A stretch of 64,000 nt of DNA from a bacterium (GTDB taxonomy: Bacteria > Krumholzibacteriota > Krumholzibacteriia > LZORAL124-64-63). The notes under the pieces are model-generated. The model saw only the letters and a list, made by a program, of their open reading frames with translations, did not search any database and was not told the DNA's origin. The first letter of the stretch is position 1; every line of letters starts with the position of its first letter. The translations under genes and the position numbers were made by a program. Shown here in pieces: positions 1 to 21,724 of this stretch. Location: positions 8,852 to 72,851 of the forward strand of contig JAHIYU010000075.1 in the NCBI GenBank assembly GCA_018814885.1. The letters are read 5' to 3'.

Positions 1-496
1 TGGCGGCCAGGCTCCACAGCACGAGAAAGGCGTATCCCCGCGCCTCCTGGCTATACCAGATGTGGAAAGGGCTGATGGCCAGCAGGAGGGCGGCCCATTC
101 GCCGCAGCGGCGATCTCCCAGCTCCTGGCCCAGGCGCATGATCAACGGGACGGCAGCCACGCCCGCCACGGCGGCGGGCAGGCGCATGAGGAATTCGGAG
201 AGGTTGTCCCGGACGAAAGGCCAGAGCACGGCCATGTACAGGGGACCCTGGATGTTGTCGCGGAACTGCTCCCAGAAGCCGTGCCCCGGCCCCGGGTTCA
301 CCATGCGCCAGGTGAAGACCTCGTCGATCCAGAGCGAATCGGCGCCGAGGCGGTAGAATCTCAGCACCGCCGCCAGCAGGATCACTAGCGTCACGTAACG
401 CCAGTCGGCCTCGCCGTCCGCTGCGCGCCCCGTCCGCGACCGCCAGGGATTCTCCACCGGGCGGGCCGTGAGGCTCCCTCCGCGCTCGGATCTCAC
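1..496 (-). CDS. GT-C fold glycosyltransferase, ArnT/PMT_2-like (N-terminal ~165 aa only; C-terminus lies before window start)
   Basis: Manual minus-strand translation; this frame is absent from the ORF track because it has no stop inside the window. It reads VETRSERGGSLTARPVENPWRSRTGRAADGEADWRYVTLVILLAAVLRFYRLGADSLWIDEVFTWRMVNPGPGHGFWEQFRDNIQGPLYMAVLWPFVRDNLSEF... A basic stretch, a first TM helix and a following DE motif are typical of ArnT/PMT N-termini. A GTG at 496 overlaps the upstream stop (GTGA). Confidence 0.5.
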   Translation of the reverse strand, partial: MRSERGGSLTARPVENPWRSRTGRAADGEADWRYVTLVILLAAVLRFYRLGADSLWIDEVFTWRMVNPGPGHGFWEQFRDNIQGPLYMAVLWPFVRDNLSEFLMRLPAAVAGVAAVPLIMRLGQELGDRRCGEWAALLLAISPFHIWYSQEARGYAFLVLWSLAA

Positions 497-1308
497 CTCG
501 GTCCGGCTTCCGGCAACGTTTCACCCATGGTGAACTCCTTCAATGAAGCGTCGATGGCGCCGACCTTGACCTTGGTCTTCATCAGCACCGGCAAGCGGCG
601 CTCGTCCGCGGTCAGCCAGATGGTCAGCTTGCCTTCGAACTGGAACAGGCCTTCACCGAGAATGATCGGCTCCACCTTGAAGCAGTCGAAAGTCCCGGCC
701 GGCACACTCACGGTCTCGCGACCGTGCACGATCACTTCCAGATCGTAGTTCTTGTGGGAGCTGTGGGTGTGAATGAACGCGCTGGCGCCCGGCTGCAGAT
801 CCATGGTGCGCACGAAATAGAAGGCCGAGAGGATATCGTGCACTCCGAACGGGATCTCCAGCTCGCGCCGATCCGCATAGTGGGCCACACCCGCCTCGTG
901 ATCGAACCTGATGGCGATGTTCTTGCGGTAGTCCCCCTCCCGCAGGCGCTTGCTGAAGTATCGACTGAACAGGGTCTCGGCGTCGATGTGCGACACGACC
1001 TTGTCGCGGACCATGTAGAAAGCCGAGAAGAACCTGTTCGAGATGGCCTTGCTCTCGACGCGATAGCACAACCGGCCGTCCGATTCGACCATGTCGCGAA
1101 CCTCGAGCGAGGCTTCTCCCGCGTTCACCGGACCGTAATCGATCGAGAAGAGCAGGAACTCACCGGGTGCGTACGGGACGCGGGCATAGGCCGGTTTCGG
1201 ATCAGATACGGCCGAATCCGTGGCAGCCAACGCACCCATGGCGACGGACGCGCCGGCCGGGACCAGCCAGCAGCCAAGGAACGTCACGATTCGTAGAAGT
1301 CCATTCAT
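493..1308 (-). CDS. secreted hypothetical protein (DUF3108-like), signal peptide
   Basis: 271-aa ORF with an N-terminal hydrophobic signal (LLRIVTFLGCWLVPAGASVAMG) and protein-like composition; the family assignment is by recollection only. Confidence 0.6.
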   Translation of the reverse strand: MNGLLRIVTFLGCWLVPAGASVAMGALAATDSAVSDPKPAYARVPYAPGEFLLFSIDYGPVNAGEASLEVRDMVESDGRLCYRVESKAISNRFFSAFYMVRDKVVSHIDAETLFSRYFSKRLREGDYRKNIAIRFDHEAGVAHYADRRELEIPFGVHDILSAFYFVRTMDLQPGASAFIHTHSSHKNYDLEVIVHGRETVSVPAGTFDCFKVEPIILGEGLFQFEGKLTIWLTADERRLPVLMKTKVKVGAIDASLKEFTMGETLPEAGPR

Positions 1309-1320
1309 GAAGAAATCCGA

Positions 1321-2391
1321 TCAACTGTCGGCTGCGTCCACCGTCCGCACGCCGCTGAGGACCTGGCGCACCGCCTCGGCGACCATCTCCGCGCTAAGTC
1401 TCGTCATGCACGGATGGTCGGGCAGGGGGCACAGCGGCAAATCGCACGGTGAACAGTCTTCACCCGTCCGGACGGCAACATGCAAGGGGTGTTCCGGGTT
1501 CCAGCCGCCCGGATCGGTCGGGCCGAAGAGCGTGACCGTCGGCACGCCCATGACCGCCGCCAGGTGGCGGGGCCCGCTGTCGGTGGCGACGAGGACGTCA
1601 AGCCGGCCCACGAGATCGGCCAGCTCGCACAGATCCGTCGGCGGGGGACAGATGATCTCCGGCACTTCGGCCAGCAGAGGCGCCAGGACGGATTCCTCCC
1701 CGGGACCCGGCAGCAGCACGACCGTCGTGCCCTCGCGCAGGATAATCCGCGCGAGGCGCGCCGCAGCCGCGAGTGGCCACGACTTGGCCGGCCAGGTCGC
1801 ACTGAGCACCAGTCCGAGGCGGGGACGGGCCCGCGCTTCCAGCCGCGCCCGCCAGCGGAGGTAGGGGCCGCCGAGTTGCGAGTCCGCGAAATCAAAACGT
1901 CCCCTCGGCAGCCACGGGAGGAGCGACAGGCCCAGCGCGCGCAAGGGATCGAGGAAACTCTCGCCCGCGAACTGGCGCAGCGACAGGTCCCGCGACCGGT
2001 TGCGCGGCACGCGCACGTTGTAGGCCCAGCTGCGCCAGCGCAGATCGTATCCCACCCGCCAGCGGGCACCGCTAAGGGCCGTCCAGAGCGCCGTCTGCGG
2101 AGTGCTCAGGAAATCGATCACCAGATCGTAATGCCGCCGCCTCAACATGCCTATCCAGGCCAGCGCGCCCAGTCTGTCGCGCTCATCCCAGGCCAGCACG
2201 TTCACCCCCGCGCGGGAGCCGAACAACTTCGCCAGGGAACGATCCACGACCAGATCCAGTTCGGCATCGGGCAGGGCCTCGTGGAGGGACAGCACCGCAG
2301 GCAAGGTGACCAGCGCGTCGCCCAGCGCCCGCCGCCGGATCATCAGGACCCGCCGTGGCGCGGCGATCGACAGCGATCCGGCCTCTCTCAT
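1321..2391 (-). CDS. glycosyltransferase family 9 (LPS heptosyltransferase-like)
   Basis: The N-terminus MIRRRALGDAL... and the C-terminal DSGPRHLAAVMGVPTVTLFGPTDP motif are diagnostic of GT9. I chose the internal ATG at 2391 because it forms an ATGA 4-nt overlap with the upstream stop at 2388. Confidence 0.8.
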   Translation of the reverse strand: MREAGSLSIAAPRRVLMIRRRALGDALVTLPAVLSLHEALPDAELDLVVDRSLAKLFGSRAGVNVLAWDERDRLGALAWIGMLRRRHYDLVIDFLSTPQTALWTALSGARWRVGYDLRWRSWAYNVRVPRNRSRDLSLRQFAGESFLDPLRALGLSLLPWLPRGRFDFADSQLGGPYLRWRARLEARARPRLGLVLSATWPAKSWPLAAAARLARIILREGTTVVLLPGPGEESVLAPLLAEVPEIICPPPTDLCELADLVGRLDVLVATDSGPRHLAAVMGVPTVTLFGPTDPGGWNPEHPLHVAVRTGEDCSPCDLPLCPLPDHPCMTRLSAEMVAEAVRQVLSGVRTVDAADS

Positions 2392-3551
2392 GGCTTCTCC
2401 CCGCTCGCGAGGTGAAGTGCGGCGATCGCGTCCATGACCTGGCCGGGCGTCAAGGCGGGGAGACAGACGAAGTCGCCGCATTCGTGCAGGTCACAGGGGT
2501 GGCAGCGAGGGCGCGTGCACAGGGCCCGGTAGGGCCCGAAGGATCCGTAGGGGAACCAGATGTCGGGATCGGTCGGTCCCAGCAGCGCGACTGTGGGCCG
2601 GGCCAGGGCCACGGCCGCGTGCATCAGTCCCCCGTCCACGGTGATCACGAGTCCGCTGTGAGTGACCGCGGCCAATGCGTCGTCGAGGGACAGGGGCGGG
2701 AGACAACCGCCGTGGGGCAACCCCGAACGAGCCAGGGCGGCGCGGTAGGCGTCGCCGCCGTCGGGGGGTGGGAGCATCACGACCGGTCCGCGTCCGTCGT
2801 CCGCGAGGGCGCGCGCAAGCCGCCGCCAGTTTTCGGGCGGCCAGGCCTTGGACGGCCAGGTCGCACCGGGTACGAGCAGCGTGTAACCGCGCGGCGACTC
2901 CACACCCAGGTCGTGCAGGGCGCTACGGACTTTCCGGCTCATGGCGAAGGGATGCAGAACCGGTCCCAGCCCGACGGGAAACTCCTCGAGATACCAGGCG
3001 CGAAAATCCAGCCCGCTAGGATGGTGCCGCAAGGGCAGCAGGCGCCCCAGGTGCTCGCCGAGCGCGCCGGGTGCCGCCCGGCGGAACGTCTGGTCCGCCG
3101 CCGGCGCAGGTACTTTCGGGGCGTGGGTGAAGAGCCGGCTGCGGATGCCCCGTGCGCCGCCGATCCGGAACCGGGAGCCGGAGAGTCGCATCAGCCAGGC
3201 GCTGCGGGGATTGTAGAGGAGGTCCACGCCGAGGTCGTAACGGCGGCGGCGCAGTTCGCCGACGGTATGCCAGGTGCCGCGGCCACCGGGTGCCTGCACT
3301 CCCCGGGCGAACCGGCGCGCGGCGGCATCCGGTCCCCGGCGCGTGCTCACCAGTGCGTGGACCCGCGAGAGGCAGGGATGGTCCCTCAGGAGGGGCGCGC
3401 CCTGCGATTCGCAGAGGTACCCCAGGTCCAGGTCGGGATCGCCTCGGCGCAGTACCTGGAGCACGACGGTGGACATGACGATGTCGCCCAGATAGCGCAA
3501 CCTGGAAACCAGCACCGAGCGCAGCCGCACGCCGTCCACCTGCCAGCTCAA
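2388..3551 (-). CDS. glycosyltransferase family 9 (LPS heptosyltransferase-like)
   Basis: N-terminus RLRYLGDIVMSTVVLQVL and C-terminal DGGLMHAAVALARPTVALLGPTDP; the start overlaps the upstream stop by 4 nt. Confidence 0.8.
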   Translation of the reverse strand: MSWQVDGVRLRSVLVSRLRYLGDIVMSTVVLQVLRRGDPDLDLGYLCESQGAPLLRDHPCLSRVHALVSTRRGPDAAARRFARGVQAPGGRGTWHTVGELRRRRYDLGVDLLYNPRSAWLMRLSGSRFRIGGARGIRSRLFTHAPKVPAPAADQTFRRAAPGALGEHLGRLLPLRHHPSGLDFRAWYLEEFPVGLGPVLHPFAMSRKVRSALHDLGVESPRGYTLLVPGATWPSKAWPPENWRRLARALADDGRGPVVMLPPPDGGDAYRAALARSGLPHGGCLPPLSLDDALAAVTHSGLVITVDGGLMHAAVALARPTVALLGPTDPDIWFPYGSFGPYRALCTRPRCHPCDLHECGDFVCLPALTPGQVMDAIAALHLASGEKP

Positions 3552-4096
3552 GTATTCAGCTCCCCCAGGATGTCGTCCACGGCACGCGCCAGATCGTCCA
3601 AGATCTTCACGCGCCAGACGGGATCCACGTCACGCGCCGTCTCGCGGCCCCGGCCCGTCTCGACAAGGTAAGTGCCCATGCCGAAATGGCGACCGAGCTC
3701 GAGGTCCGAGAGCTTGTCGCCGATGATCCACGCGCGCTCAGAATGCCAACGGAGCCGGCGAGCCGCGGCGTCCAGCATACCGGGACGCGGCTTGCGGCAG
3801 TTGCAGTCGTCCTCGGGCGCGTGAGGGCAATAGTAGACGCCGTCCAGCGCCACACCCTCGGCGGCCAGGAGGGCATCGACGCGCTCCTGCACCGCCGCGA
3901 ACTCGCGCTCCGAATAGTAACCTCGGCCGATGCCCGACTGGTTCGTCACGACCACCAGGCGCAGACCGGCGGCAGCGGCGCGCGCCAGGGCCGCGGCGAC
4001 CCCCGGCAGCAACCTCACCCGGGCAGGGTCGCTGATGTATTCCGTGTCCTCGATGATGACGCCGTCCCGGTCGAGGAAGAGGATCGGTGCCGCCGT
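3548..4096 (-). other. GmhB (HAD-IIIA) domain portion of the fusion protein
   Basis: DRDG, TNQSG and CxH...CxCRKPxPGM motifs; boundary estimated by residue count. Confidence 0.7.
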
Positions 4097-5227
4097 CATC
4101 CCGGGCGTGTCCGGCGGGGGTTCGCGGCAGCAGGAGGGACCTGATCCCGGCACCATCGAGAGCGCGTCCGCCGCCCCGAGTATCCGCCGCGCGGCGATGC
4201 TGTCCAGGCAGAAGCTCTCCCGGGGACACGACGGCAGGTAGCAGGGCTGACAGGGGAATCCCTCGGCGCGTACCGAGGTCGCCGCCGGTCCGCGCGGACG
4301 GGTCCAGGCGGTGCTCGTGGAACCGTAGATGCCCACCGTGGCCTTGCCCAGGGCGGCCGCGAGATGCATCAGGCCGCTGTCGTTGCCGACGAAAACCGCC
4401 GCCTCCCGCAGTAGCGAAGCAACCTCGACCAGGGACGTGCGGCCCACGAGATCGTGACAGCCGGGCTGCTCGCCAAGGCGGTCCCGCCACGGACGATCGA
4501 CCAGCGAGCGCACCCTCCTCGCCGTGCCGCTCGCAGCGATGTCGCCGATCAGGGCCACGCGTACATCGTCTCGCGCGAGCAGTTCTGCGATCAGTTCCGC
4601 CTGCCGTTGCGGCGGCCAGGATTTGGCGTCGCCGTAAGTGGCGCCCACGGACAGCAGCCACAACGGCGGCTTCGAGTCCACATCCCTCTCACCTGGATTC
4701 GCGACACCGGCCCCCAGACGGGGATACGGTGGCACCGGATGGGCCGGCGGCTGGCAACCCAGGCAGTCCCGGGCCCAGGCCCGATAGAGCAGGCCCAACT
4801 CCTCGGTGTAGTGCATGGTGCCTCGCGGCGGACGTGCGACGGGCGCGGTGAGCAGCAGGGAGCGGGCGTCCCCCCTGAACCCGATTCGCGCTGGGATGCC
4901 GGATATGCGGGCGACGACGGCGGCGCGCAGGGAGGGCGGCAAAAGCATGACGGCCGGGTACTTCCCTCTGCGCCACTCCGCAGCCTGGCGCCAGACACCC
5001 CGCCAACCGGCATGCCGCCCCCGGCGTGAGTATCGGATCACTCCGGACAGCCTCGGGTCGTCCGCCAGCAGGGGCAGCCAAGCCTCGCGGACGGACACGT
5101 GCAAGTCCGGACAAGGAAGATCGAGATCCCGCTCGCCCGCGGCGAAGAGCTCCAGCAACGAGGTGGCCATGACCAGATCGCCGAGCCAGTTCGGCGCCGC
5201 CAGGAGGAGGGTCATGCGCCGGGCCAT
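3548..5227 (-). CDS. fusion: GT9 heptosyltransferase-like domain (N) + D-glycero-D-manno-heptose 1,7-bisphosphate phosphatase GmhB domain (C)
   Basis: N-terminal NWLGDLVMATSLLELF... and GNDSGLMHLAAALGKATVGIYGSTS are GT9 motifs. The C-terminal ILFLDRDGVIIED...VVVTNQSGIGRGYY...YYCPHAPEDDCNCRKPRPGML is the HAD-IIIA GmhB signature, including the Zn-binding Cys/His cluster. Confidence 0.8.
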   Translation of the reverse strand: MARRMTLLLAAPNWLGDLVMATSLLELFAAGERDLDLPCPDLHVSVREAWLPLLADDPRLSGVIRYSRRGRHAGWRGVWRQAAEWRRGKYPAVMLLPPSLRAAVVARISGIPARIGFRGDARSLLLTAPVARPPRGTMHYTEELGLLYRAWARDCLGCQPPAHPVPPYPRLGAGVANPGERDVDSKPPLWLLSVGATYGDAKSWPPQRQAELIAELLARDDVRVALIGDIAASGTARRVRSLVDRPWRDRLGEQPGCHDLVGRTSLVEVASLLREAAVFVGNDSGLMHLAAALGKATVGIYGSTSTAWTRPRGPAATSVRAEGFPCQPCYLPSCPRESFCLDSIAARRILGAADALSMVPGSGPSCCREPPPDTPGMTAAPILFLDRDGVIIEDTEYISDPARVRLLPGVAAALARAAAAGLRLVVVTNQSGIGRGYYSEREFAAVQERVDALLAAEGVALDGVYYCPHAPEDDCNCRKPRPGMLDAAARRLRWHSERAWIIGDKLSDLELGRHFGMGTYLVETGRGRETARDVDPVWRVKILDDLARAVDDILGELNT

Positions 5228-5240
5228 GGCGACCTCCTCG

Positions 5241-6308
5241 TCAACGCGCGCTCCGCACGGCCTCGACAGCTTCCATCAACGTCTCGATGTCCACGCGCTG
5301 GCCGCCCTTGACGCGCAGAACGCGGACGTGCGGATAACCGTCGGGCACCCAGGATGCATCGTCCTCCTTGAGAAAGAGTCCGAGCGTGGGCACGCCCGTC
5401 GCGACCGCGAAATGGAAGAGGTCCGTGTTGCCCGCGATGAACAGATCGCACAACGCGGCCAGCAGGACCGTATCGAAGAGGGTCTCGCGCGGCAGGCTGA
5501 GGGGCGGTACGGTCAACCCGGACTCGAAGCGCTGCAGCAGCTCCGGGTCGGCGTCGATGCTCAGGGGCAGGGTACGGCATGGCATCTGGCTGGCCAGCTG
5601 GTTCATGACGAAATGGAGGTTCTGGGCCGCTAGGCCGACGCCGGCTTTGCCGAGCGCGGGATCGACGCCCACCAGCACCTCGTCCTGCCGCGGTTTGTTG
5701 AAATGGATGAGCTGGCGCATGCGGCGCACGCGCTCCTCGGGCAGGGGCCAGGCGCGGTCGCGGGAGAAGGCCGGCAGCCCGAGGAAGGGCGCGGCGGCGG
5801 AGAGCCTCTCGCCGCGGTAGCGGTCGTCTGGCTCGCGCTGGCGTATCTCGAAATTGACGGCGGGGAAGGAACCGCCATGGGAAGGGCCGAGTCGCAGCTT
5901 CGCGCCGCTGGCCAGGGCTACGGCCTCGAGACCGGCCTGGGGCGTAAACGACATGACCACGCTCAGGTCGTACTCGCGCTTGCGGACGTTTTTGAGCAGG
6001 GAATACATGCCGGGGCTCCACGGCTGCAACTGCCGCCGCCGGTAGACGAGGCAGTGGTGTGCGATGCCGCTCGGCGCGATCAGCGGAGCATGCTCCTCGG
6101 GAATCAGGAAATCGATGCGCGCACGGGGATACTCTTCCCGCACCGTCTGCAACAAGGGCATGTGGAAGAGCAGATCGCACAGGTCTCCGTTGTCTATGGC
6201 CAGCAGGCGGGATTCCATGCCCAGGGTGCCCGGAAGGCTGAAGGCCCCCGCCTCGCCCCTGGCGATGAAACGTCCCAGAAGACCGGTCAAGAAGCTGCCG
6301 TCCACCAC
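5241..6308 (-). CDS. glycosyltransferase family 9 (divergent heptosyltransferase-like)
   Basis: C-terminal AGNTDLFHFAVATGVPTLGLF matches the GT9 C-domain. The ORF start is a GTG; an alternative ATG (MESRLLAIDNGDL) lies at 6218. Confidence 0.7.
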   Translation of the reverse strand: MVDGSFLTGLLGRFIARGEAGAFSLPGTLGMESRLLAIDNGDLCDLLFHMPLLQTVREEYPRARIDFLIPEEHAPLIAPSGIAHHCLVYRRRQLQPWSPGMYSLLKNVRKREYDLSVVMSFTPQAGLEAVALASGAKLRLGPSHGGSFPAVNFEIRQREPDDRYRGERLSAAAPFLGLPAFSRDRAWPLPEERVRRMRQLIHFNKPRQDEVLVGVDPALGKAGVGLAAQNLHFVMNQLASQMPCRTLPLSIDADPELLQRFESGLTVPPLSLPRETLFDTVLLAALCDLFIAGNTDLFHFAVATGVPTLGLFLKEDDASWVPDGYPHVRVLRVKGGQRVDIETLMEAVEAVRSAR

Positions 6309-6339
6309 CGTCCACCCTTCCTCGTGCGTCGGATCATCG

Positions 6340-8727
6340 TCATTCCGCGAGTGCGGGGAATATCTCCGCGAACACCTCGTCCACGTGCTTCACGCAGACG
6401 AAAGTGATGTCCTTGGCCGCCTCTTCGGGGATGTCTTCCAGGTCCGCCTCGTTCTGGTTGGGCATGATGATCTTGCGTATGCCCGCCCGGTGTGCGGCCA
6501 GCACTTTCTCCAGCAGTCCGCCGATGGGCAGGACATCGCCGGTCAGGGTGATCTCGCCGGTCATCGCCGTGCGCCTGTCGATGGCCTCGCCCACCATCAG
6601 CGAGAAGAGCACGGAGGCCATCGTGATACCTGCGCTGGGTCCGTCCTTGGGGATGGCGCCGGCGGGGATGTGGATATGGATGTCCAGATCCTTGAAGAAA
6701 GCGGCGTGTTGCGACTGCGCGCCCCACTGGCCGCGCAGATAGGAGTACGCGGCGTTCGCCGATTCCTGCATCACGCTGCCCAGCTGGCCGGTCAGTTTCA
6801 ACTGTCCGCTGCCGTTGGGCAACGTCACGCCCTCCAGGTAGAGGATCTTGCCCCCTACGGAAGTCCAGGCCAGACCAGTGGCCACACCTACCTTGGTCCG
6901 GCTGCGCAGCCGGTCTGGGTCGTAGTCTGCGTGACCCAGGTAGTCCACGAGGTTCTTGGCGGAGATCACCTGGCGCTTCCGCTTGCCGCGGGCGACCATC
7001 TTGGCGACCTTGCGGCATACGCTGCCGATCTTGCGCTCGAGTTCACGCACCCCGGCCTCTCGCGTGTAGCCGGCGATCAGAGCGCGAACCCCCGCGTCGG
7101 TGAATCTGATGTACCGTCCGGTCAGTCCGTTCTCCTCCACCTGGCGCGGCACCAGGTACCGCTTGGCGATTTCCATCTTCTCCAGGTTGGTGTAACCCGG
7201 CAGGTTGATAACCTCCATGCGGTCGAGCAGGGGGCGCGGGATGGTGTCCATCATGTTCGCGGTGGTGATGAACAGGACATGGGACAGGTCGAAGGGCACC
7301 GATATGTAATGGTCGGTGAACGAATTGTTCTGCTCGGGGTCCAGCACCTCCAGCAGGGCGCTGGCCGGGTCGCCGCGGAAGTCCTGGCCGAGCTTGTCGA
7401 TCTCGTCCAGCATGATCAGGGGATTGTTGGTGCCGCAATCCTTCAGGCCGGTGATGATGCGGCCGGGCATGGCGCCGACGTAGGTGCGCCGGTGCCCCCT
7501 GATCTCCGCCTCGTCGCGCATGCCGCCGAGCGAGAAGCGGAAGAACTCACGTCCGATGGCGTCCGCGATGCTGCGCCCCAGCGACGTCTTGCCGACGCCC
7601 GGCGGTCCCACGAGGCAGATGATGGGGCCGCGGTGATCGCCCTTCAACTTGCGCACCGACAGGAACTCAAGGATGCGCTCCTTCACGTCCTCCAGACCGT
7701 AGTGGTCCCGCTCGAGGATCTTCTCGGCCCGCTTGATGTCCAGCTTGTCCTCGGAACTCGCCAACCAGGGCAGATCTAGCAGCCAGTCGATGTAGGTCTT
7801 GCTGACCGTGTATTCGCTGGCTCCCGGCGACATGCGGGAGAGGCGGCTCACCTCCTTCTCCGCCGTCGTGCGCACGTGCTCGGGGAGATCGGCCTGGGCC
7901 AGCCGCTCGTTCAGGTCCTCGATCTCCACCGACGTGTCGTCCGTATCGCCCAGCTCGCGCTGGATCGCCTTGAGCTGCTGCCGCAGATAGTACTCGCGCT
8001 GATCCTTGTCTATGGATTTGCGCACCTTGGTCTGGAGCTTCTGCCCGAGCTCCACGACCTCGAGCTCCCGGACCACGATCTTGGCCAGGATCTGCAGCCG
8101 CTCGAGCGGCGCCACGGCTTCCAGCACGGACTGCTTCTCGTGGACGTCGATGTCCAGATTTGTGGCGATGAGGTCCGCGAGTCGCCCAGGGTCGTCTATG
8201 TTCATCACCACGATCTTCAGCTCGTCCGAGAGGGTCTCGCTGGCGTCCACGATCTTCAGGAAATTGTTGGCCACGCCGCGCATGTAGGCCAGCGTCCTGG
8301 GATCGTTTGCCGTTTTCTCCGGGACGGCTTCCACCGCCGCCTTGAGATAGGGCTTGTCGGTGATGAACTCCTTGATGCGGATGCGCGCCACGCCCTGGCC
8401 GAGCAGGCGCATGCTGCCGTCGGGGAAGCGCAGCATCTTCTGGATCTTGACAGCGGTACCGATATGGTAGAGCAGCTCCTCTCCCCGCGTTTCGGCTTCC
8501 TCCCCGTCATCGCTCTCATCCAGTTCGCGCTGCGCGAAGGCGCCCAGGATCTTGTCGCTCGCCAGGCAGTCGTCAGCGAGCTGGATGAGGTTCTCGTCGC
8601 TCAGCACCAGAGGCACCATCATGTAGGGGAAGATGACTGCTTCGCTGATCGGCAGCACAGGTAATATTTCCGGAACGAAGCCCTCGCCCTGTTCGGTGTC
8701 CATGCTGTTGGTCTCGTCGTTCATCAA
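6340..8727 (-). CDS. lon: ATP-dependent Lon protease
   Basis: 795 aa with an N-terminal LON substrate-binding domain, a Walker A motif [11 protein letters not shown], and a C-terminal proteolytic domain containing [15 protein letters not shown]. Confidence 0.95.
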
Positions 8728-9260: not shown

Positions 9261-10202
9261 TCAACCTCTGCGCGGGGGCAGGATGGGGGGCGCGTCGTCC
9301 CGATAAGAGCCATGGGCCAGGAGCGTCTCCACCTCCGTCGCGCAGGGCAATCCGGCCCTGCCGCCATACGCCCGGCATTGCAGGGCCGCGACCGCCGCCC
9401 CGCAGCGCAGGCTGGCCGCGAATCCACCGCCGGCGGCCAGGGACCACGCGTAGCCGGCGTGAAAGGCGTCGCCTGCACCGGTCGTATCCACCACCTGCGT
9501 CACGAAGGCCGGGACGTAGCGAAAACCATCGCCGTCCAGTCCCAGGACCCCGGCCCGCCCGAAGGTGGTGCCGACACGGAGGGGCCCCTGTCCGCGCAGA
9601 CGCCTCAAGGCCTCCCTCTGATCCGCGATCCCGTTCAGGGCACAGGCAAAACCCGTGGCGCCGATCACGTCGGTACAATGCGCCACGAGTTCGGGGACGC
9701 CGGCCTTCACGGACCCCGCATCCAGCACCACCGGCAGCCCTCGACGCCGAGCAGCGAAGGCGAGGACCGCGGCCGCCGGAGCTTCGTGCGAATCGCACAG
9801 CAGGAGATCCGCGCCGGCGAGCCAGGACGCGTCCACGCCGGCGGGGTCGTAGCGGGGCAGATCGCCCCGCTCCCAGTAGATCCGGCGTTCCCCGCTGCGC
9901 GGATCGACGCGGATGACCGCCAGGGGCGAGCGCGAATGTGCGGCCGTCCGGATCAGCGAGACGTCCACGCCGGCGGTTTCCAGCTCCGTCAGATGCGCTC
10001 GCCCGAACGCGTCATCCGACATTACCGACACCAACCGCACCCTGGCACCGAGCTTGCTGAGCGCGATCGCCGCGTTGGCCGCCGGACCGCCCCCGCAGGT
10101 CACCATGGGCGACACCTCGGTCTTCGAATCCGGCGGCGGGGTTTCCGCAAGCGGGAAGATCAGATCCCATGCGCTGTAGCCGACGACGATGACCGTCTTC
10201 AT
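9261..10202 (-). CDS. PfkB/ribokinase-family carbohydrate kinase
   Basis: GGGPAANAAIALSKLGA (motif 1) and VVDTTGAGDAFHAGYA (motif 2); start chosen at MKTVIVVG. Confidence 0.8.
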   Translation of the reverse strand: MKTVIVVGYSAWDLIFPLAETPPPDSKTEVSPMVTCGGGPAANAAIALSKLGARVRLVSVMSDDAFGRAHLTELETAGVDVSLIRTAAHSRSPLAVIRVDPRSGERRIYWERGDLPRYDPAGVDASWLAGADLLLCDSHEAPAAAVLAFAARRRGLPVVLDAGSVKAGVPELVAHCTDVIGATGFACALNGIADQREALRRLRGQGPLRVGTTFGRAGVLGLDGDGFRYVPAFVTQVVDTTGAGDAFHAGYAWSLAAGGGFAASLRCGAAVAALQCRAYGGRAGLPCATEVETLLAHGSYRDDAPPILPPRRG

Positions 10203-10296
10203 GGATACCGCCCGTTGCCGCACCGCGAGCGGCATGTTACCGTGGGAAAGGACTCATGCACGATTCCCACCCAAACCAGATGTCGCGAGGTCGCAC

Positions 10297-13038: not shown

Positions 13039-13317
13039 CTATTTCACGAGCGACATCTTGACGGTCGCGTCGGCTCCTCCGGTGCGCGCCCTCAGGAAGT
13101 AGACTCCGCTGGCCTGAGGTTGCCCGCGGTCGTCGCGCCCCTCCCAGGTGACGGAGTGCCAGCCCGGCGAGACGGTGCCCTGGTGAAGGCTGCGTACGCG
13201 CCTGCCGGCCATGTCGTAGACGTCCACCCGCAGATCCACCTCGCCCGCGTCGCCCGGGATGTAGAGCTTGACCTCCGTGCTCGGGTTGAAGGGGTTGGGG
13301 TGATTCGGCTGCAAAGT
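13039..13317 (-). other. T9SS type-A C-terminal sorting domain (Por_Secre_tail-like) of the C25 protein
   Basis: TLQPNHPNPFNPSTEVKLYI...VYDMAGRRV...WEGRDDRGQPQASGVYFLRARTGGADATVKMSLVK. Confidence 0.7.
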
Positions 13318-16300
13318 CAACCGCGAGGGCTTCGGGATGTCCGGCACCTCGGTGGTGCTCAGGATCCTGAAGACGCCGTCGCGCAGGTTGTTGCCGCGGA
13401 AGGTCAGCCAGGGGGCCTCGGTGCCGTCGAAGGCATAGGGCATGTCCCATACGTGGATCAACAGATCCCAACCGCCGTAGACGATGTCTACGTCATGATC
13501 CCTGTCGAGATCGCAGATCACGGGTGTGGGATTGACCGGTCCGCCGAGCGAGAGCGGGAAGCCCTCCACGTCCGTACCGTCGTGCTTGAAGGCGTACAGG
13601 TTGTTGGGCGACTCTGTGTTGCCGCCGCCGATGCCGAACAGGATGTCCAGCATGCCGTCGCCGTTGATGTCGCCGACCACGGGGTTCGAATTCGAGTTGC
13701 CGGGCACCATGATCGGCCAGCCGGGCATGGTCTCGCCGCTCGTGCCGCCGACGTAGTCCGTGTCGATCAAGTGCACGTACGACTCGAGGCTGCCGAAGAC
13801 CTCGACCGCCACGATCTCGAGTTCGCCATCGTCGTCGAAATCGCCGACCGCCGGACTCGGGCAGGTGCGGTCGCCGTTGTCGCTCTGGGCCCGGAAGTAG
13901 ATCGGGAATCCGGTATAGTACGAGCCGTTCTCGTGCACGACGTGAAGCTGGTCGTCCTCCGAGACGAAGATGATCTCCCAGATTCCGTCCGCGTCCAGGT
14001 CGGCCACCGTGGGACTGACCATGATGCTGCCGCCGCCCCCGGTCTCGATGGGGAAGCCGGGCAACTGGGTACCGTCCCAGCGGTAGGCGCGCAGCGAGTT
14101 GGTGGTCTCCCATCCGTAGCGCGTGCCGAAGATGATGTCCTTGGCGCCGTCGTGGTCCAGGTCGAAGAGGGCGGGCCCGGAGCGGTTCCAGCCGGCCCAC
14201 GAGAGTTCGGCCGTACGATCGATGAGCGGCCCGTTGGTGGCGGGGTTGCTGTCGCCGTCGCGAACCTCGGTGCCGTCGGCGTGCCAGGCCAGTGTGACCC
14301 GATTCAGGTTGTTGCAGACGATCTCCGGCTCGCCGTCGCCGTCGATGTCGCCCACGGCTGCCGGCGCCCAGACCCAGCCCGCACCTGTCGACTGGGGCCA
14401 CCCCGGCAGCAGGGTGCCGTCGGACTTGAAGACGTAGATGAGCTTCAGGTCGCGGTCGGAGCAGATGATCTCCGCGCCGGGCTCGCCGTCCAGCTCGGCC
14501 AGGGTGACGGCCATCGCGGTCAACCGGCCCGTGAGGTTGGTGATGGGACCGCGCGTCTGGGCGTTGTCGTCGCCGTCGAACAGCTCGCCGCCGTCCTCGG
14601 TCCAGACGTACACCTCGTCGGCCGTGAGCACCACTTCCAGACGGCCGTCGCCCGTCACGTCGCCGACAGCGCAGTGGCTGTCGGTCTCGCGACCGAAGGG
14701 CAGGGGAAAATCGCCCGTCTCCGGGGGTGCCGTGCTCTTGGCGAACGGATCTGATTGGTCTCCCTCGATCAGCGAGGTATTCACGGCCGAGACGCGGTAG
14801 TAGTAGCGGGTCAGCAGATCGAGCCCGGAGTCGCGGAAGTAGGAGATCCCCTCCAGGAGATCGACGTTGGCCCGCGCGTAGGGGCCGCCTTCGGCATCAC
14901 TGCGATACACGTGATAGCCGCGTGCGTCGTCACCAGCCACCGGGTCCCAGACCAGCTCGATCACGTCGGCGCCCAGGGTCAGGCCGGAATCGATGCCCTG
15001 CGGCACGTCCGGATCGACGATCTGGAAGTCGTGGGTGAAGGTCCGCCCCATGTTGTCCACGAAATCGATCCGTGCGTCGTAGGCCTGGGACGTGTCGATG
15101 ACCGCCATCGAGAAGAGGGCGGCGCCGTTGGACGTGTCCATCAGGGCGAGTCCCGTATACGTCACCACGGTGTCGTGAAGCGTGACGTTGGGGCTGTTGG
15201 TCCGCAGGTATCCCGTGATCATGTCGGCGAAACCCGCACCGAAATTCTTGAGACGCAGAACGATGGAGATGCGCTCGTTGTCGTCCACGATGCCGTCGCT
15301 GTTGCCGTAGAAGGTGTCGAACCAGGTCAGGGCGATGGGCTCGACTTCCGGGGCCATCATGGTCGCCCCCCACTCGCTGAACCAGGACGAGCCGCCGTCG
15401 TCGACCTCGATCGTGAAGTCCAGGTTCATGCCGTCCCACATCAGCTGATGCGCCGCGACCAGGAACGGAGCGCTCGCGGCGACGGATCCACCGGAAGGCA
15501 CGTCGGGCACCGCGACCACGCCGACGTTGAGCACCAGACCGGGCGTGGTGGTGGTCAGGGTCGCGGTCAGGCCGGTGGCTCCGCCCGTGCCGGTATCCTC
15601 GAAGCGCGCGGCGAGGGCCACAGTCTCTCCCGCCTCGATGACCCCGTTGCCGTTGCCGCTCGAGCCGAGCGTGCCGTCATCGATGACGGTCATCGATTCC
15701 AGCGCGATATAGGCGCCGGGATTGGAGACCGTCACCGTCACCGATGTCTGCTCGATGTTGGTGCCGTTCACGGTCAAGGTGAGATCGCCGCCCTCGGTCA
15801 GGGTGACGGGCAAGGCGACCTGTCCGACGCCGTCGGTGACGTCGCGCACGTAGACGCCGCCGGTCCGGGCGAGGGTGACCCGCGCGCCGACGACGGGTGA
15901 GCCGCCGGATGTGACGGTCACGTTGACCGTCTGCTGGCCGGTCACGAGGCTGCCGGGCGCGGCGATGACGACCGCCGCCGGGTCCGCGGTCCACATTTTC
16001 TGGGCGGGGTCGCCCAGCAGGGTGTAGTTCATGTAGGTCCAGCGCGTGAAGCTGTTGGTGGAGGCGAAATCGAGCCAGGGCAGTCGGCTCAAGGTCATCA
16101 GGTCGCCGAGTCGCGGCTCTCCCTCACACATCAGCTGATTGAAGAACTCGACCTGGAAGTCGTTGGCCGTGGAGGGAAAGGCGGCGCGGCTGGCGCCGAT
16201 GGAGGCGAAGGAGCCGCCATTGGGGTTCTGCACGAAACGTTCCATGAGGCACGAGTAGTCGAAGGCGGCGGATGCGCAGTTCAACGCATACATGAGGAAC

Positions 16301-17910
16301 GTGTTCTCGTTTGTCAGGGCGTCGGCGTCGCCGCCGGTGATGTTCAGATCACCCACCGACATGTCGAAGAAGAAGCCGTGTCCGATCTGGTTGAAGATGC
16401 CGTAGCGGCCGGTGTCCAGGCTGTCGAGCACCGCCCGACGGGTCTCGTTGACCGATCCGGGATACAGGAGCTGATCGAACTCGTCCCTCTCGTCGTAGGA
16501 TTCGTAGAGCCGGATGTACTCCATGTCCGTGCACGGCTCGATCACCGAGTCGACCAGGCCTTCGGCATAGTTGGCGCCGTCGAGGGTGATGTCCCCATCC
16601 TGGTTGCGGAACAACACCTCGGCCGCGAACATGAAGCGGTTGCCAAAGCCGGAGCCGGTCTGGGCGGACTCCTGGGCGATGACCTTGTTCACGAAAACGG
16701 TTGCCGCGGCGGCATTGCTGACCGGCGCCCGGCCGAAGCCGATATCGCTCGACATGTCGCAATCATCGCCGGGGTTGAGCACGCTCTGGTTCGGTTCCCC
16801 GAAGATCATGTCGCCGTCGGCGTTCCAGTTCCCGTCCAGACAGGCGAAGTACAGGTCGGCGGGGATATCGGTGCTGCCGCCGGGCGGGTAGAAGTCGCTG
16901 GTGATGAAACGAGCCGGCACGATATCCGTATCGCCTCCCAGCAGGACATATTCCACTCCCCAGCGCTGATAGGCGTCGCGAATGAACATGCGGATGGTTT
17001 CCTGAATATCCACTCCGTGCCGGTAGTTGTCCTCGATCCAGCTGATGGTCTTGACGACGGCCGGCAACCCCTGTGCCGTGCGGGAGACCGCCAGGGGCTC
17101 GAACGCGCTCGCGAGCCCGTCGCTGGTGATGATCAAGTACGCTACGTCGCTTCCGCTCAGGCTGGGTGTCTTGCTGGGAGCGAAGCCCTTTGCGGGTCCG
17201 GCGACGGTGATGCCGTCCTCGCGCTGATAGCCGGATAACGTGCCGGGATTGTCCACGGTGGCGGCCAGGATCCGCTCCAGGCGGGCGCGCTCGCCGGGAA
17301 CCTTGCGTTGGCGGACTGCCACGCTCTCGAGTGCGACGGGCACTAGCGAAGGCCGCAAGCGCACTTCGAAGCGATCGAGGAATTCCAGCGAGCCCCAGTC
17401 GCCCGCGGCGGTTCGCGTGGCGCGCAGGGGATAGACGGTGACAGTCGCCATCTTGAAGCCACGGAAGATCTGCACTCCGCCGTAGCGCCCCCAGGCGGAG
17501 GGATAGACCGAGGACTCGGCATCACCGTGCAGGGACTGGCCGACGGCTATGCCTTCGCTGCTGATCGCCTTGCCGGCGACGCGTAGGGGCGCCGGCGCGG
17601 AGACGCCATGGGTAGCGAGGGGAACGACCTCGATGTCTCCGACCGCGATGTCCAGCGGGACCAGCAAGGTCAGGGAACGTCCCACCAGTTCGGGGATGTC
17701 CGTGTCCTCCAGGCTGCGGGTGCCCGCCAGGACCGGCACGACGGTGCCGTCGCCGGTGTCGGACCAGCTCAGGCCGCTTGCGGTGAAAGTGCCCTCGTAT
17801 ATGACCTCTCCCCCCGCATGCGCCGAGATCGTGAAGATCGGCAGCAACAGCGCCAGGGCGAACGGCAGGATGATCACTGTGCGGTTGTTCAAGATTTGAT
17901 GCCTGAGCAT
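13039..17910 (-). CDS. gingipain-like peptidase C25 megaprotein with FG-GAP/VCBS repeats and a T9SS C-terminal sorting domain
   Basis: Signal peptide MLRHQILNNRTVIILPFALALLLPIFTISAHA. C25 motifs include YLIITSDGL, LLGGDTDIVP, YFACLDGNW, the catalytic-His region NQIGHGFF and the Cys region YALNCASAAFD. Multiple GDxxGDGxxE FG-GAP repeats follow, and the C-terminus NHPNPFNPST...VYDMAGRRV...SGVYFLR is a Por-secretion-tail motif. Start at 17910 is preceded by GGGGG. Confidence 0.85.
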   Translation of the reverse strand: MLRHQILNNRTVIILPFALALLLPIFTISAHAGGEVIYEGTFTASGLSWSDTGDGTVVPVLAGTRSLEDTDIPELVGRSLTLLVPLDIAVGDIEVVPLATHGVSAPAPLRVAGKAISSEGIAVGQSLHGDAESSVYPSAWGRYGGVQIFRGFKMATVTVYPLRATRTAAGDWGSLEFLDRFEVRLRPSLVPVALESVAVRQRKVPGERARLERILAATVDNPGTLSGYQREDGITVAGPAKGFAPSKTPSLSGSDVAYLIITSDGLASAFEPLAVSRTAQGLPAVVKTISWIEDNYRHGVDIQETIRMFIRDAYQRWGVEYVLLGGDTDIVPARFITSDFYPPGGSTDIPADLYFACLDGNWNADGDMIFGEPNQSVLNPGDDCDMSSDIGFGRAPVSNAAAATVFVNKVIAQESAQTGSGFGNRFMFAAEVLFRNQDGDITLDGANYAEGLVDSVIEPCTDMEYIRLYESYDERDEFDQLLYPGSVNETRRAVLDSLDTGRYGIFNQIGHGFFFDMSVGDLNITGGDADALTNENTFLMYALNCASAAFDYSCLMERFVQNPNGGSFASIGASRAAFPSTANDFQVEFFNQLMCEGEPRLGDLMTLSRLPWLDFASTNSFTRWTYMNYTLLGDPAQKMWTADPAAVVIAAPGSLVTGQQTVNVTVTSGGSPVVGARVTLARTGGVYVRDVTDGVGQVALPVTLTEGGDLTLTVNGTNIEQTSVTVTVSNPGAYIALESMTVIDDGTLGSSGNGNGVIEAGETVALAARFEDTGTGGATGLTATLTTTTPGLVLNVGVVAVPDVPSGGSVAASAPFLVAAHQLMWDGMNLDFTIEVDDGGSSWFSEWGATMMAPEVEPIALTWFDTFYGNSDGIVDDNERISIVLRLKNFGAGFADMITGYLRTNSPNVTLHDTVVTYTGLALMDTSNGAALFSMAVIDTSQAYDARIDFVDNMGRTFTHDFQIVDPDVPQGIDSGLTLGADVIELVWDPVAGDDARGYHVYRSDAEGGPYARANVDLLEGISYFRDSGLDLLTRYYYRVSAVNTSLIEGDQSDPFAKSTAPPETGDFPLPFGRETDSHCAVGDVTGDGRLEVVLTADEVYVWTEDGGELFDGDDNAQTRGPITNLTGRLTAMAVTLAELDGEPGAEIICSDRDLKLIYVFKSDGTLLPGWPQSTGAGWVWAPAAVGDIDGDGEPEIVCNNLNRVTLAWHADGTEVRDGDSNPATNGPLIDRTAELSWAGWNRSGPALFDLDHDGAKDIIFGTRYGWETTNSLRAYRWDGTQLPGFPIETGGGGSIMVSPTVADLDADGIWEIIFVSEDDQLHVVHENGSYYTGFPIYFRAQSDNGDRTCPSPAVGDFDDDGELEIVAVEVFGSLESYVHLIDTDYVGGTSGETMPGWPIMVPGNSNSNPVVGDINGDGMLDILFGIGGGNTESPNNLYAFKHDGTDVEGFPLSLGGPVNPTPVICDLDRDHDVDIVYGGWDLLIHVWDMPYAFDGTEAPWLTFRGNNLRDGVFRILSTTEVPDIPKPSRLTLQPNHPNPFNPSTEVKLYIPGDAGEVDLRVDVYDMAGRRVRSLHQGTVSPGWHSVTWEGRDDRGQPQASGVYFLRARTGGADATVKMSLVK

Positions 17911-18353
17911 TCCATACCCCCGATGTATGGAGTCCCTGAGGACTCGCGAAAGTCTGTCTGTAGGTAATTGCTCTGCAGAGCACTCGCCGTCGTGAGAAAC
18001 ACCTGGTGCGCCAATTCGGTCGCGAGCCGCGACCGCCCCCGAACAGATAGCCTCGTCGCCCAGCATGCCTCCTGGCAAATGTCTTATGTGGCGGGCGCCG
18101 CGCGTCTTACACGGCACCCGAGAGTGTACTCCAATATGACGCTCGTGTCAACTTCGGCAGGGCGGGATCCACCCCGCGAGCGCCATCCGCCCGTCGCGCT
18201 GGCACCGGGGCCGGCGAGGCTGGAATGTCAGATACGACCGGGCCGGGGTCCACATGCAACACCCGAAGTTGTATCGTGTCCACGACACGTGCGCCGCAGG
18301 CCGGCGTACGGTTACGAGAGCATGTCGAATTATACCATGCGGGAGACTGTAAA

Positions 18354-21656: not shown

Positions 21657-21724
21657 TTGACCACCGCTCCGTCGGCGGTTCTTGCAACTCGCACCGTATG
21701 GCAAGCTCCGCGGGGTGGCAACGA

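What the first reader, a model, noticed from the sequence alone, without database searches (positions are those of the whole stretch)
3548..5227. Fusion of a GT9 glycosyltransferase with GmhB heptose-1,7-bisphosphate phosphatase
GmhB is normally a standalone step of ADP-heptose synthesis. Here a complete GmhB domain, with DRDG, TNQSG and the Zn-binding CxH...CxC cluster, is fused C-terminal to a complete GT9 domain in one 559-aa frame. A phosphatase from nucleotide-sugar precursor synthesis fused to the transferase that uses the product implies substrate channelling. Alternatively it implies a new activity, such as dephosphorylation of a heptose-phosphate after transfer. I do not recall this architecture being described.
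Basis: partly seen in the sequence, partly recalled or inferred. Interest (0 to 1): 0.7.

Follow-up and report, generated by a model that had tools for sequence, protein, structure and literature searches.

The report
Heptosyltransferase fused to GmhB phosphatase
One gene really does encode an LPS heptose-adding enzyme joined to a heptose-precursor phosphatase, but this join is common in environmental bacteria, arises easily from two overlapping neighbour genes, and most likely just tethers two ordinary enzymes of one pathway.

Summary
It is one uninterrupted 559-aa ORF. Residues 5-356 are a WaaF-like GT9 heptosyltransferase and residues 380-555 are a complete GmhB-type HAD-IIIA phosphatase with all catalytic and Zn motifs. 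The gene DNA is identical in four independent assemblies, and the fusion is kept in orthologues down to 47 % identity, so it is not a frameshift artefact.

The architecture is not rare. Of the 150 best 50 %-identity cluster representatives, 43 are full-length GT9->GmhB proteins. Reverse-order and GT9-GmhB-GT9 forms also exist. Carriers include Nitrospira, Thermodesulfovibrio and the window's lineage. Databases name these proteins after one half only, and I found no paper describing them.

In the closest relatives (Krumholzibacteriia), and in Desulfobacterota, Acidobacteriota and Aminicenantes, the two parts are separate adjacent genes. Usually the gmhB ATG overlaps the GT9 TGA (ATGA). In Acidobacteriota-type loci the order is GT9-gmhB-heptose kinase-adenylyltransferase. 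A tree places fused forms in at least three clades.

Best reading: a recurrent merger of a translationally coupled waaF-gmhB pair, giving a bifunctional enzyme with two conventional, non-consecutive activities. Direct channelling and post-transfer dephosphorylation are not supported. Interest is low.

The parts
3548..5227 (-). Whole fused gene, 559 aa: GT9 heptosyltransferase joined to GmhB phosphatase
   Evidence: ORF list; translation; domain scans; identical DNA in four assemblies
4160..5215 (-). GT9 (WaaF-like, GT-B fold) domain, residues about 5-356. Conserved residues: G16-D17 (nearly invariant, >=90 %), K202, N282-D283, H288. Also a four-Cys cluster: C326, C329, C334, C340
   Evidence: TIGR02195 135.4 bits and PF01075 E 2.3e-34; E. 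coli WaaF 1psw at E 1.3e-22 by sequence and E 1.5e-19 by fold; conserved columns
4091..4159 (-). Linker, residues about 357-379. Pro-rich and variable in sequence, with a predicted short strand at 365-368
   Evidence: Alignment A1; AF2 pLDDT 87-92 here. It aligns with the N-terminal extension of unfused Krumholzibacteriia GmhB: the 'VWKP' of fused orthologues P0009-P0015 matches 'AVWKP' in L017
3563..4090 (-). GmhB-type HAD-IIIA phosphatase domain, residues about 380-555, with DxD, TNQSG, RK and GDxxxD motifs and the CxH/CxC zinc loop
   Evidence: NF006506 177.1 bits and TIGR01656 150.9 bits; PDB GmhBs 4pnh, 3l8h, 3l8e, 2gmw at E 1e-31 to 1e-33; fold match to 3l8h with TMt 0.92, rmsd 1.7; invariant motifs
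5241..6308 (-). Upstream gene, 355 aa: divergent GT9-like protein with no Pfam family on record. It ends 13 nt before the fused gene's ATG
   Evidence: Weak NCBIfam hits to heptosyltransferase III and I (E 6e-8 and 1e-6); no Pfam on record; conserved in synteny
2388..3551 (-). Downstream GT9 paralogue, 387 aa. Its start overlaps the fused gene's stop by 4 nt
   Evidence: PF01075 E 6.6e-28; best NCBIfam model is heptosyltransferase I at 93 bits, below cut-off; E. coli WaaC E 1.8e-15
1321..2391 (-). Second downstream GT9 paralogue, called as 356 aa in public assemblies; the longest ORF runs to 2481
   Evidence: PF01075 E 2.3e-28; gene calls in L001; E. coli WaaC E 5.7e-12
493..1308 (-). DUF3108 gene that closes the tightly packed cluster inside the window. 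A PMT_2 (ArnT-like) gene follows and is cut by the window start
   Evidence: PF11306 E 8.5e-44; synteny in L001, L085, L086

Best explanation
The gene encodes a bifunctional LPS inner-core enzyme formed by merging two neighbouring, translationally coupled genes. The N-terminal GT9 domain is a WaaF-type heptosyltransferase. [quoted passage not shown] Asp17 in PNWLGD is the likely catalytic base, and Lys202 and ND283SGxMH form the nucleotide-sugar site. The C-terminal domain is a conventional GmhB. Asp386 is the nucleophile, Asp388 the acid/base, Thr428 and Lys479 hold the phosphate, Asp504 and Asp508 hold Mg2+, and the Cys467/His469/Cys475/Cys477 loop holds Zn. [quoted passage not shown] The two activities are not consecutive, because adenylylation and epimerisation lie between them. 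The fusion therefore does not hand a product from one site to the other. It fixes a 1:1 ratio and places GmhB next to the membrane-associated transferase, which relatives achieve with an ATGA start/stop overlap. Shown here: domain identity, intact motifs, the reality and recurrence of the fusion, and its origin from adjacent genes. Inferred: both catalytic activities, the acceptor, and any benefit of tethering.
For: Both domains are complete and score as WaaF-like and GmhB. Catalytic and metal-binding residues are invariant, or nearly so for G16-D17, in 30 fused homologues. The fusion is real: four independent assemblies have identical DNA, GC3 runs continuously in frame, and orthologues at 47-80 % identity keep it. 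In 23 species representatives the GT9 and gmhB parts are separate adjacent genes. Thirteen of these have an exact ATGA overlap, including one of the two closest relatives (Krumholzibacteriia L021), and both Krumholzibacteriia share the window's [GT9][gmhB][GT9][GT9] order. In L018, L023, L037, L048 and L056 the order is GT9-gmhB-hldA-hldC, so this gmhB belongs to precursor synthesis. An NJ tree of GT9+GmhB puts the fused state in at least three clades separated by unfused ones. Reverse-order and triple fusions also exist. In Nitrospira the fused gene follows lpxB-msbA-waaA-lpxK, which is LPS core context. The linker aligns with the N-terminal extension of unfused Krumholzibacteriia GmhB. The beta-type model scores 177 bits against 89 for the alpha-type, and relatives use a PfkB-type kinase and an HldE-like adenylyltransferase, which indicates the ADP-beta pathway.
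Against: No activity was measured. NF006506 is 0.9 bit under its curated cut-off and TIGR00213 is below its own (128 against 149.6). The window holds no gmhA, hldA/E, hldC or hldD, so pathway completeness in this organism is unverified. I could not determine whether the genome has a second, standalone gmhB. The AF2 model of the window protein has pTM 0.90 with an ordered linker. That hints at a fixed two-domain unit rather than a loose tether. The Nitrospira control gave pTM 0.63 with a disordered linker, so the meaning of this packing is unclear.
Confidence: 0.78

Rival explanations
1. Transfer-then-dephosphorylate enzyme. The GT9 domain transfers a 7-phosphorylated heptose, for example from ADP-heptose 7-phosphate, onto the core. 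The fused HAD domain then removes the phosphate from the glycan. The two domains would catalyse consecutive steps, as in Cj1432 and Hib Bcs3.
For: Glycosyltransferase-HAD fusions with this logic are experimentally documented (PMC12096443). The GT9-gmhB pairing is unusually tight and widely conserved (ATGA overlap or fusion). The window protein is predicted as a compact unit with pTM 0.90.
Against: The HAD domain is an ordinary GmhB by sequence and fold. In five unfused relatives' loci the adjacent gmhB is followed directly by the heptose kinase and adenylyltransferase genes, which is the place of the precursor phosphatase. An independent fusion in Nitrospira has a disordered tether, which gives no sign of coupled active sites. 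No ADP-heptose 7-phosphate-using GT9 is known to me (own knowledge).
Confidence: 0.06
2. Scaffolded heptose metabolon. In this lineage the fused protein is a rigid unit that also recruits the kinase, adenylyltransferase and epimerase, so that ADP-heptose is produced and consumed at one membrane-proximal site.
For: AF2 gives pTM 0.90 and an ordered linker. The linker derives from a conserved N-terminal extension of the standalone GmhB in sister lineages. Translational coupling is typical of interacting partners (own knowledge). The GT9-gmhB-hldA-hldC operon occurs in relatives.
Against: No partner genes lie in the 64-kb window. The Nitrospira control model shows no fixed arrangement. The high pTM may reflect the 20 window-lineage sequences that dominate the alignment. 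I could not inspect the model coordinates.
Confidence: 0.12
3. Assembly or gene-calling artefact: two separate genes read as one because of a frameshift error at the junction.
For: Relatives often have separate genes with a 4-nt overlap, so a single-base error could create an apparent fusion. The linker DNA contains a C5 run.
Against: The gene is identical in four independent assemblies (NCBI x2, Logan, ENA). Nineteen diverged orthologues at 47-80 % identity have the same uninterrupted frame with different linker sequences. GC3 stays in frame across the linker.
Confidence: 0.02

Closest known systems
E. coli WaaF (heptosyltransferase II, GT9; PDB 1PSW) and WaaC (PDB 2H1F, 6DFE)
   Same: GT-B fold and GT9 signature. 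The PxWxGD, GxxxGxxKxWP and NDSGxMH regions align with E. coli WaaF, and their key residues are conserved in the fused family. It scores above the TIGR02195 cut-off. In Nitrospira the fused gene has LPS core gene context.
   Different: It carries a C-terminal GmhB domain. It has a CxxC-x4-C-x5-C cluster that E. coli WaaF and WaaC lack. It is only about 24 % identical to WaaF, so the acceptor specificity (first, second or later heptose) is not established.
[quoted passage not shown]
   Same: All four HAD motifs, the CxH/CxC zinc loop and the capless HAD-IIIA fold are present. Fold match to 3L8H has TMt 0.92 and rmsd 1.7, with 35-37 % identity to 3L8H and the E. coli GmhB structures. The zinc loop has a 5-residue spacer, as in the Bordetella and Burkholderia enzymes.
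   Different: It is not a standalone protein of about 180-190 aa but the C-terminal domain of a GT9 enzyme. It is preceded by a roughly 20-aa segment that in sister lineages is an N-terminal extension of GmhB.
HldE (RfaE), the fused heptose 7-phosphate kinase / heptose 1-phosphate adenylyltransferase of the same pathway
   Same: It is a gene fusion inside the ADP-heptose pathway that joins two NON-consecutive steps; GmhB acts between HldE's two activities (annotation; pathway order from own knowledge). HldE also occurs split as HldA + HldC, as in the relatives seen.
   Different: The domains are different. HldE joins two precursor-synthesis steps, whereas this protein joins a precursor step to the final transfer step.
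HisB (HisB-N HAD phosphatase fused to imidazoleglycerol-phosphate dehydratase)
   Same: The closest paralogue of GmhB has the same zinc cap and motifs, and it is also fixed as a fusion with another enzyme of its own pathway after insertion next to it in an operon (PMC9798254).
   Different: HisB-N is N-terminal and acts on histidinol phosphate. The window domain scores far better as GmhB (177 bits) than as HisB-N (90 bits).
Cj1432 (C. jejuni) and Bcs3 (H. influenzae b) capsule polymerases with an internal HAD phosphatase domain
   Same: A glycosyl or phosphoribosyl transferase and a HAD phosphatase sit in one polypeptide (PMC12096443).
   Different: In those enzymes the phosphatase acts on the product of the fused transferase, so the steps are consecutive. 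Here the HAD domain is an orthologue of a precursor-pathway enzyme, and no evidence points to a phosphorylated transfer product.

Membership tests
Glycosyltransferase family 9 (LPS heptosyltransferases) | Significant match to the family profile above the curated threshold | tested here: met
   PF01075 119.3 bits (cut-off 22); TIGR02195 135.4 bits (cut-off 134.6, only just above)
Glycosyltransferase family 9 (LPS heptosyltransferases) | GT-B two-lobe fold superposable on WaaF/WaaC | tested here: met
   AF2 model with pLDDT 90. Foldseek: 1psw E 1.5e-19, TMt 0.76; 3tov TMt 0.77; WaaC 2h1f TMt 0.75
Glycosyltransferase family 9 (LPS heptosyltransferases) | Conserved N-terminal GD (catalytic Asp), the Lys of GxxKxWP, and the NDSGxMH nucleotide-sugar motif | tested here: met
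   G16-D17 nearly invariant; K202, N282, D283, G285, M287 and H288 invariant in 30 homologues, and aligned with E. coli WaaF. The roles of these residues are recalled from WaaC work, not tested here
Glycosyltransferase family 9 (LPS heptosyltransferases) | Uses ADP-heptose and a Kdo/heptose-lipid A acceptor | not testable with these tools
   Only context is available: four GT9-type genes in tandem in the window, and lpxK-waaA neighbours in Nitrospira
GmhB (HBP 7-phosphatase, HAD-IIIA) | HAD motifs I-IV: DxD, T/S, K, and DxxxD or GDxxxD | tested here: met
   D386/D388, T428, K479 and D504/D508 are invariant
GmhB (HBP 7-phosphatase, HAD-IIIA) | Zinc-binding CxH...CxC loop | tested here: met
   C467, H469, C475 and C477 are invariant. 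The feature is described in PMC9798254
GmhB (HBP 7-phosphatase, HAD-IIIA) | Score above the curated equivalog cut-off | tested here: inconclusive
   NF006506 177.1 against 178; TIGR00213 128.2 against 149.6. The HAD-IIIA and histidinol-phosphatase-domain superfamily models are well above cut-off
GmhB (HBP 7-phosphatase, HAD-IIIA) | Genomic association with the other ADP-heptose synthesis genes | tested here: inconclusive
   Not met in the 64-kb window: no gmhA, hldA/E, hldC or hldD. Met for the counterpart in five relatives' loci with GT9-gmhB-hldA-hldC
GmhB (HBP 7-phosphatase, HAD-IIIA) | Hydrolyses the C7 phosphate of beta-HBP | not testable with these tools
   Needs an enzyme assay. The beta-type model outscores the alpha-type, 177 bits against 89
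GT9-GmhB fusion proteins (database architecture PF01075 + PF13242) | Both domains in one uninterrupted ORF, kept in orthologues | tested here: met
   559-aa ORF. 71 full-length GT9->GmhB proteins among those fetched, 43 of them among the best 150 representatives at 50 % identity. Twenty species-representative loci carry a single ORF

The most novel reading that the evidence does not exclude
The HAD domain has been recruited to act after glycosyl transfer. The GT9 domain would add a heptose that still carries its 7-phosphate, and the fused phosphatase would trim it on the growing core. This is a synthase-phosphatase logic like Cj1432/Bcs3, and it would explain why gmhB is welded to this one heptosyltransferase across several phyla.
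Probability: 0.05. Interest if true: 0.7.

Novelty: new member of a known kind. Interest (0 to 1): 0.22.

Why it matters
It matters little for this window. Both domains are ordinary members of well-studied families, and the fusion is widespread in public data. The modest value lies in three points. First, a waaF-like heptosyltransferase and gmhB form a conserved, translationally coupled pair in many non-proteobacterial phyla, and this pair has merged into one gene at least three times. Second, database names describe only half of these proteins, so automated pathway reconstruction could score gmhB or waaF as missing in Nitrospira, Thermodesulfovibrio and this lineage. Third, the fused proteins could be convenient subjects for testing whether GmhB physically associates with the core-assembly machinery.

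Tried and rejected
1. I first scanned the wrong upstream frame (5212-6315). The real gene is 5241-6308.
2. The nearby PfkB gene (9261-10235) looked like a candidate heptose kinase. It scores as ribokinase-like (128 bits) and only 40 bits against the HldE kinase model (cut-off 345), so I rejected it.
3. I searched the window for gmhA, hldE and hldD using NCBIfam and Pfam on selected ORFs and E. coli K-12 references against all ORFs. Nothing was found.
4. Five literature searches for a described GT9-GmhB fusion or waaF-gmhB coupling found nothing relevant. The Coxiella and septacidin papers were checked and are irrelevant.
5. The GmhB structure paper (Nguyen et al. 2010) could not be retrieved. 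I therefore make no claim about C1-phosphate-binding residues.
6. The afdb50 fold library was unavailable, so I could not list UniProt entries with this architecture by structure.
7. I considered a conserved GT9-GmhB interface as a general property of the fusions. The Nitrospira control model gave pTM 0.63 with a disordered linker, so I rejected it as a general property.
8. I considered the internal ATGA at codon 376 as a relic of the ancestral junction. The Met is not conserved in orthologues, so I treat it as coincidence.
Full report
OBSERVATION

The interval 3548..5227 holds a single 559-aa ORF, but it is on the minus strand. The plus-strand reading of the same interval is interrupted by stops. 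The ATG at 5227 is preceded by GGAGG about 7 nt upstream. The TGA stop at 3550-3548 overlaps the TTG start of the next gene by 4 nt.

Pfam finds Glyco_transf_9 (E 2.3e-34, residues 83-334) and HAD Hydrolase_like (E 2.3e-15, residues 477-548). NCBIfam finds heptosyltransferase II TIGR02195 over residues 7-356 (135.4 bits, cut-off 134.6). It finds the beta-type GmhB model NF006506 over residues 380-554 (177.1 bits, cut-off 178). The alpha-type model reaches only 89 of 250 bits and HisB-N only 90 of 140.

By sequence, the HAD half matches the solved GmhB structures 4pnh, 3l8h, 3l8e and 2gmw at E 1e-31 to 1e-33. The GT9 half matches E. coli WaaF (1psw) at E 1.3e-22 and WaaC only at about 5e-4.

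An AlphaFold2 model has mean pLDDT 90.2. Each half superposes on its own family: 1psw at E 1.5e-19, and 3l8h at TMt 0.92 with rmsd 1.7. No solved chain covers both halves; the best TMq is 0.49.

These are D386xD388G, T428NQSG, C467xH469...C475xC477, R478K479 and G503D504...D508. On the GT9 side, G16-D17 is nearly invariant (at least 90 %), and K202, N282-D283 and H288 are invariant.

IS THE FUSION REAL?

Yes. The same protein occurs on four contigs from independent assemblies: two NCBI MAGs, one Logan run and one ENA assembly. The 1680-nt gene is identical in all four. GC3 stays at 0.75-0.90 in the reading frame through the linker. Nineteen orthologues at 47-80 % identity keep one frame with different linker sequences.

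HOW COMMON IS IT?

A word-indexed search found about 30 fused homologues. It also found GmhB domains fused to other partners: a cytidylyltransferase-like domain, NTP_transferase, formyltransferase and a PlsC acyltransferase.

An exhaustive phmmer search against 1.84 billion representatives at 50 % identity was followed by local classification with domain HMMs cut from the alignment. Among the best 150 representatives there are 43 full-length GT9->GmhB proteins, 15 contig-end fragments with both domains, and 5 reverse-order GmhB->GT9 proteins. In addition there are reverse-order proteins in cultured Micromonospora and Plantactinospora, and one 875-aa GT9-GmhB-GT9 protein.

Gaps between the two domain envelopes range from 3 to 47 residues. 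Source names cover one half only: 'lipopolysaccharide heptosyltransferase II', 'gmhB', or 'HAD-IIIA family hydrolase'. Five literature searches found no description of the architecture.

WHERE IT COMES FROM

I scanned one genome per GTDB species and re-analysed the loci by ORF. Twenty loci have a true single ORF: Nitrospira, other Nitrospirota, Thermodesulfovibrio, and the window's lineage.

Twenty-three loci have separate GT9 and gmhB genes that are immediately adjacent and in the same orientation. These are Krumholzibacteriia, Desulfobacterota, Desulfarculus, Acidobacteriota, Aminicenantes, Eisenbacteria and some Nitrospirota. In 13 of them the gmhB ATG overlaps the GT9 TGA as ATGA. That is the classic arrangement for translational coupling, and a single indel would turn it into an in-frame fusion.

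The closest species representatives, two Krumholzibacteriia (39-41 % identity), have the window's gene order [GT9][gmhB][GT9][GT9] but are unfused. Their GmhB carries an N-terminal extension of about 20 aa ('MAVWKPC...', 'MSIWLQP...'). In the alignment, the 'GVWKPLG' of fused orthologues P0009-P0015 falls in the linker, at the column of the window's C365-E368. The linker therefore derives from that extension.

A neighbour-joining tree of concatenated GT9+GmhB (511 columns, no bootstrap) puts the fused state in at least three clades:
- the window's lineage, sister to the unfused Krumholzibacteriia;
- a Nitrospira clade, with unfused Nitrospirota (L029, L032) beside it;
- a Thermodesulfovibrio/Nitrospiraceae clade.

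WHAT THE PHOSPHATASE DOMAIN DOES

I used E. coli K-12 GmhA, HldE (split into its two halves), HldD, WaaF, WaaC and GmhB as references. The 64-kb window contains no gmhA, heptose kinase, adenylyltransferase or epimerase gene. The neighbouring PfkB gene is ribokinase-like, not HldA.

In five relatives' loci (three Acidobacteriota, L023, L037 and L056; also L048 and L018) the order is GT9-gmhB-hldA-hldC. The gmhB that pairs with this GT9 is therefore the precursor-pathway phosphatase. The partner genes are those of the ADP-beta-heptose route.

In Nitrospira the fused gene follows lpxA-lpxI-lpxB-msbA-waaA-lpxK, which places the GT9 half in LPS core assembly. In the window's lineage the cluster Lon-[GT9-like]-[GT9-GmhB]-GT9-GT9-DUF3108-PMT_2-Bac_transf is conserved down to 47 % identity.

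MECHANISM

From established knowledge of the pathway (GmhA, HldA/HldE kinase, GmhB, HldC/HldE adenylyltransferase, HldD, then WaaC/WaaF), GmhB and the transferase are separated by two steps. Direct product hand-over between the fused domains is therefore not possible. HldE and HisB show that fusions of non-consecutive steps are normal in this enzyme neighbourhood.

The most likely effect of the fusion is fixed stoichiometry and co-location at the membrane face. That replaces translational coupling.

The window protein's model has pTM 0.90 and an ordered linker, which would suggest a rigid unit. A control model of an independently fused Nitrospira protein, built from the same 30 sequences, has pTM 0.63 and a linker with pLDDT 26-30. 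A fixed interface is therefore not a general property of these fusions. The high value may reflect the better-sampled lineage. I could not inspect the coordinates.

RIVALS

A transfer-then-dephosphorylate mechanism has real precedents: Cj1432 and Bcs3 (PMC12096443). It would explain the tight pairing. However, nothing in the sequence departs from an ordinary GmhB, and the operon context in relatives argues against it. I give it about 0.06.

A larger heptose metabolon is possible but unsupported (about 0.12). An assembly artefact is essentially excluded (about 0.02).

VERDICT

The protein is one more member of a large, unnamed but database-visible family of GT9-GmhB fusions that arise recurrently from an overlapping gene pair. 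Interest is low, at about 0.2. The one useful practical point is that annotation names only half of the protein.

Noticed in passing
window 4208-4252 (-), residues C326-C340; also in GT9 paralogues at 2388-3551 and 1321-2481: An invariant CxPC-x4-C-x5-C four-cysteine cluster lies near the C-terminus of the GT9 domain. It is present in 74 of 75 unfused and 77 of 94 fused relatives and in both downstream paralogues, but absent from E. coli WaaF and WaaC. It may be a metal-binding knuckle. The iron-containing GT9 TibC appeared among the fold hits, but I did not compare the sites.
   Followed up: partly
window 5241-6308 (-): A 355-aa protein directly upstream of the fused gene has no Pfam family on record. 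It has only weak N- and C-terminal similarity to heptosyltransferase models (E 6e-8 and 1e-6). It is conserved in synteny down to the 47 % identity relatives, and is probably a very divergent GT9-fold enzyme.
   Followed up: partly
window 9261-10235 (-), with HSP20 and Lon (6340-8727) between it and the GT9 cluster: A ribokinase-like PfkB kinase is kept in synteny with the GT9 cluster in all close relatives. It does not score as the heptose kinase HldA (40 bits against a cut-off of 345). Its substrate is unknown.
   Followed up: partly
window 20313-21704 (-), 22873-24276 (-), 34156-36198 (-): More envelope-glycan genes lie further along the window: a WecA/MraY-family phosphotransferase, a Wzy_C O-antigen-ligase-like protein, and a 680-aa sulfatase-family protein (possibly a phosphoethanolamine-transferase or LTA-synthase type).
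   Followed up: no
window 13039-18117 (-): A 1692-aa ORF. By synteny with L085 and L086, its counterpart carries Peptidase_C25, FG-GAP, FlgD_ig and, in one relative, a Por_Secre_tail (type IX secretion) signal. This fits an FCB-group or Krumholzibacteriota-like organism.
   Followed up: no
one search hits P0096-P0120; P0139; P0104, P0111, P0113: GmhB domains occur fused to many other partners: HldC-like cytidylyltransferase, NTP_transferase, formyltransferase, and PlsC acyltransferase. There is also a GT9-GmhB-GT9 protein of 875 aa, and a reverse-order GmhB-GT9 protein in cultured Micromonospora and Plantactinospora, which are Gram-positive and have no LPS.
   Followed up: partly
window 4100-4103 (-), codon 376: An internal ATGA (Met376) lies 10 codons before the DRDG motif, where relatives have the gmhB start overlapping the GT9 stop. 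The Met is not conserved in orthologues, so this is probably coincidence. I did not assess internal initiation.
   Followed up: partly
L014 and L018 (MAGs labelled Acidimicrobiia): Two MAGs labelled as Actinobacteria (Acidimicrobiia) carry LPS-type GT9-gmhB genes that group with Nitrospira and Acidobacteriota sequences in the tree. This may be contamination from binning or a wrong label.
   Followed up: no
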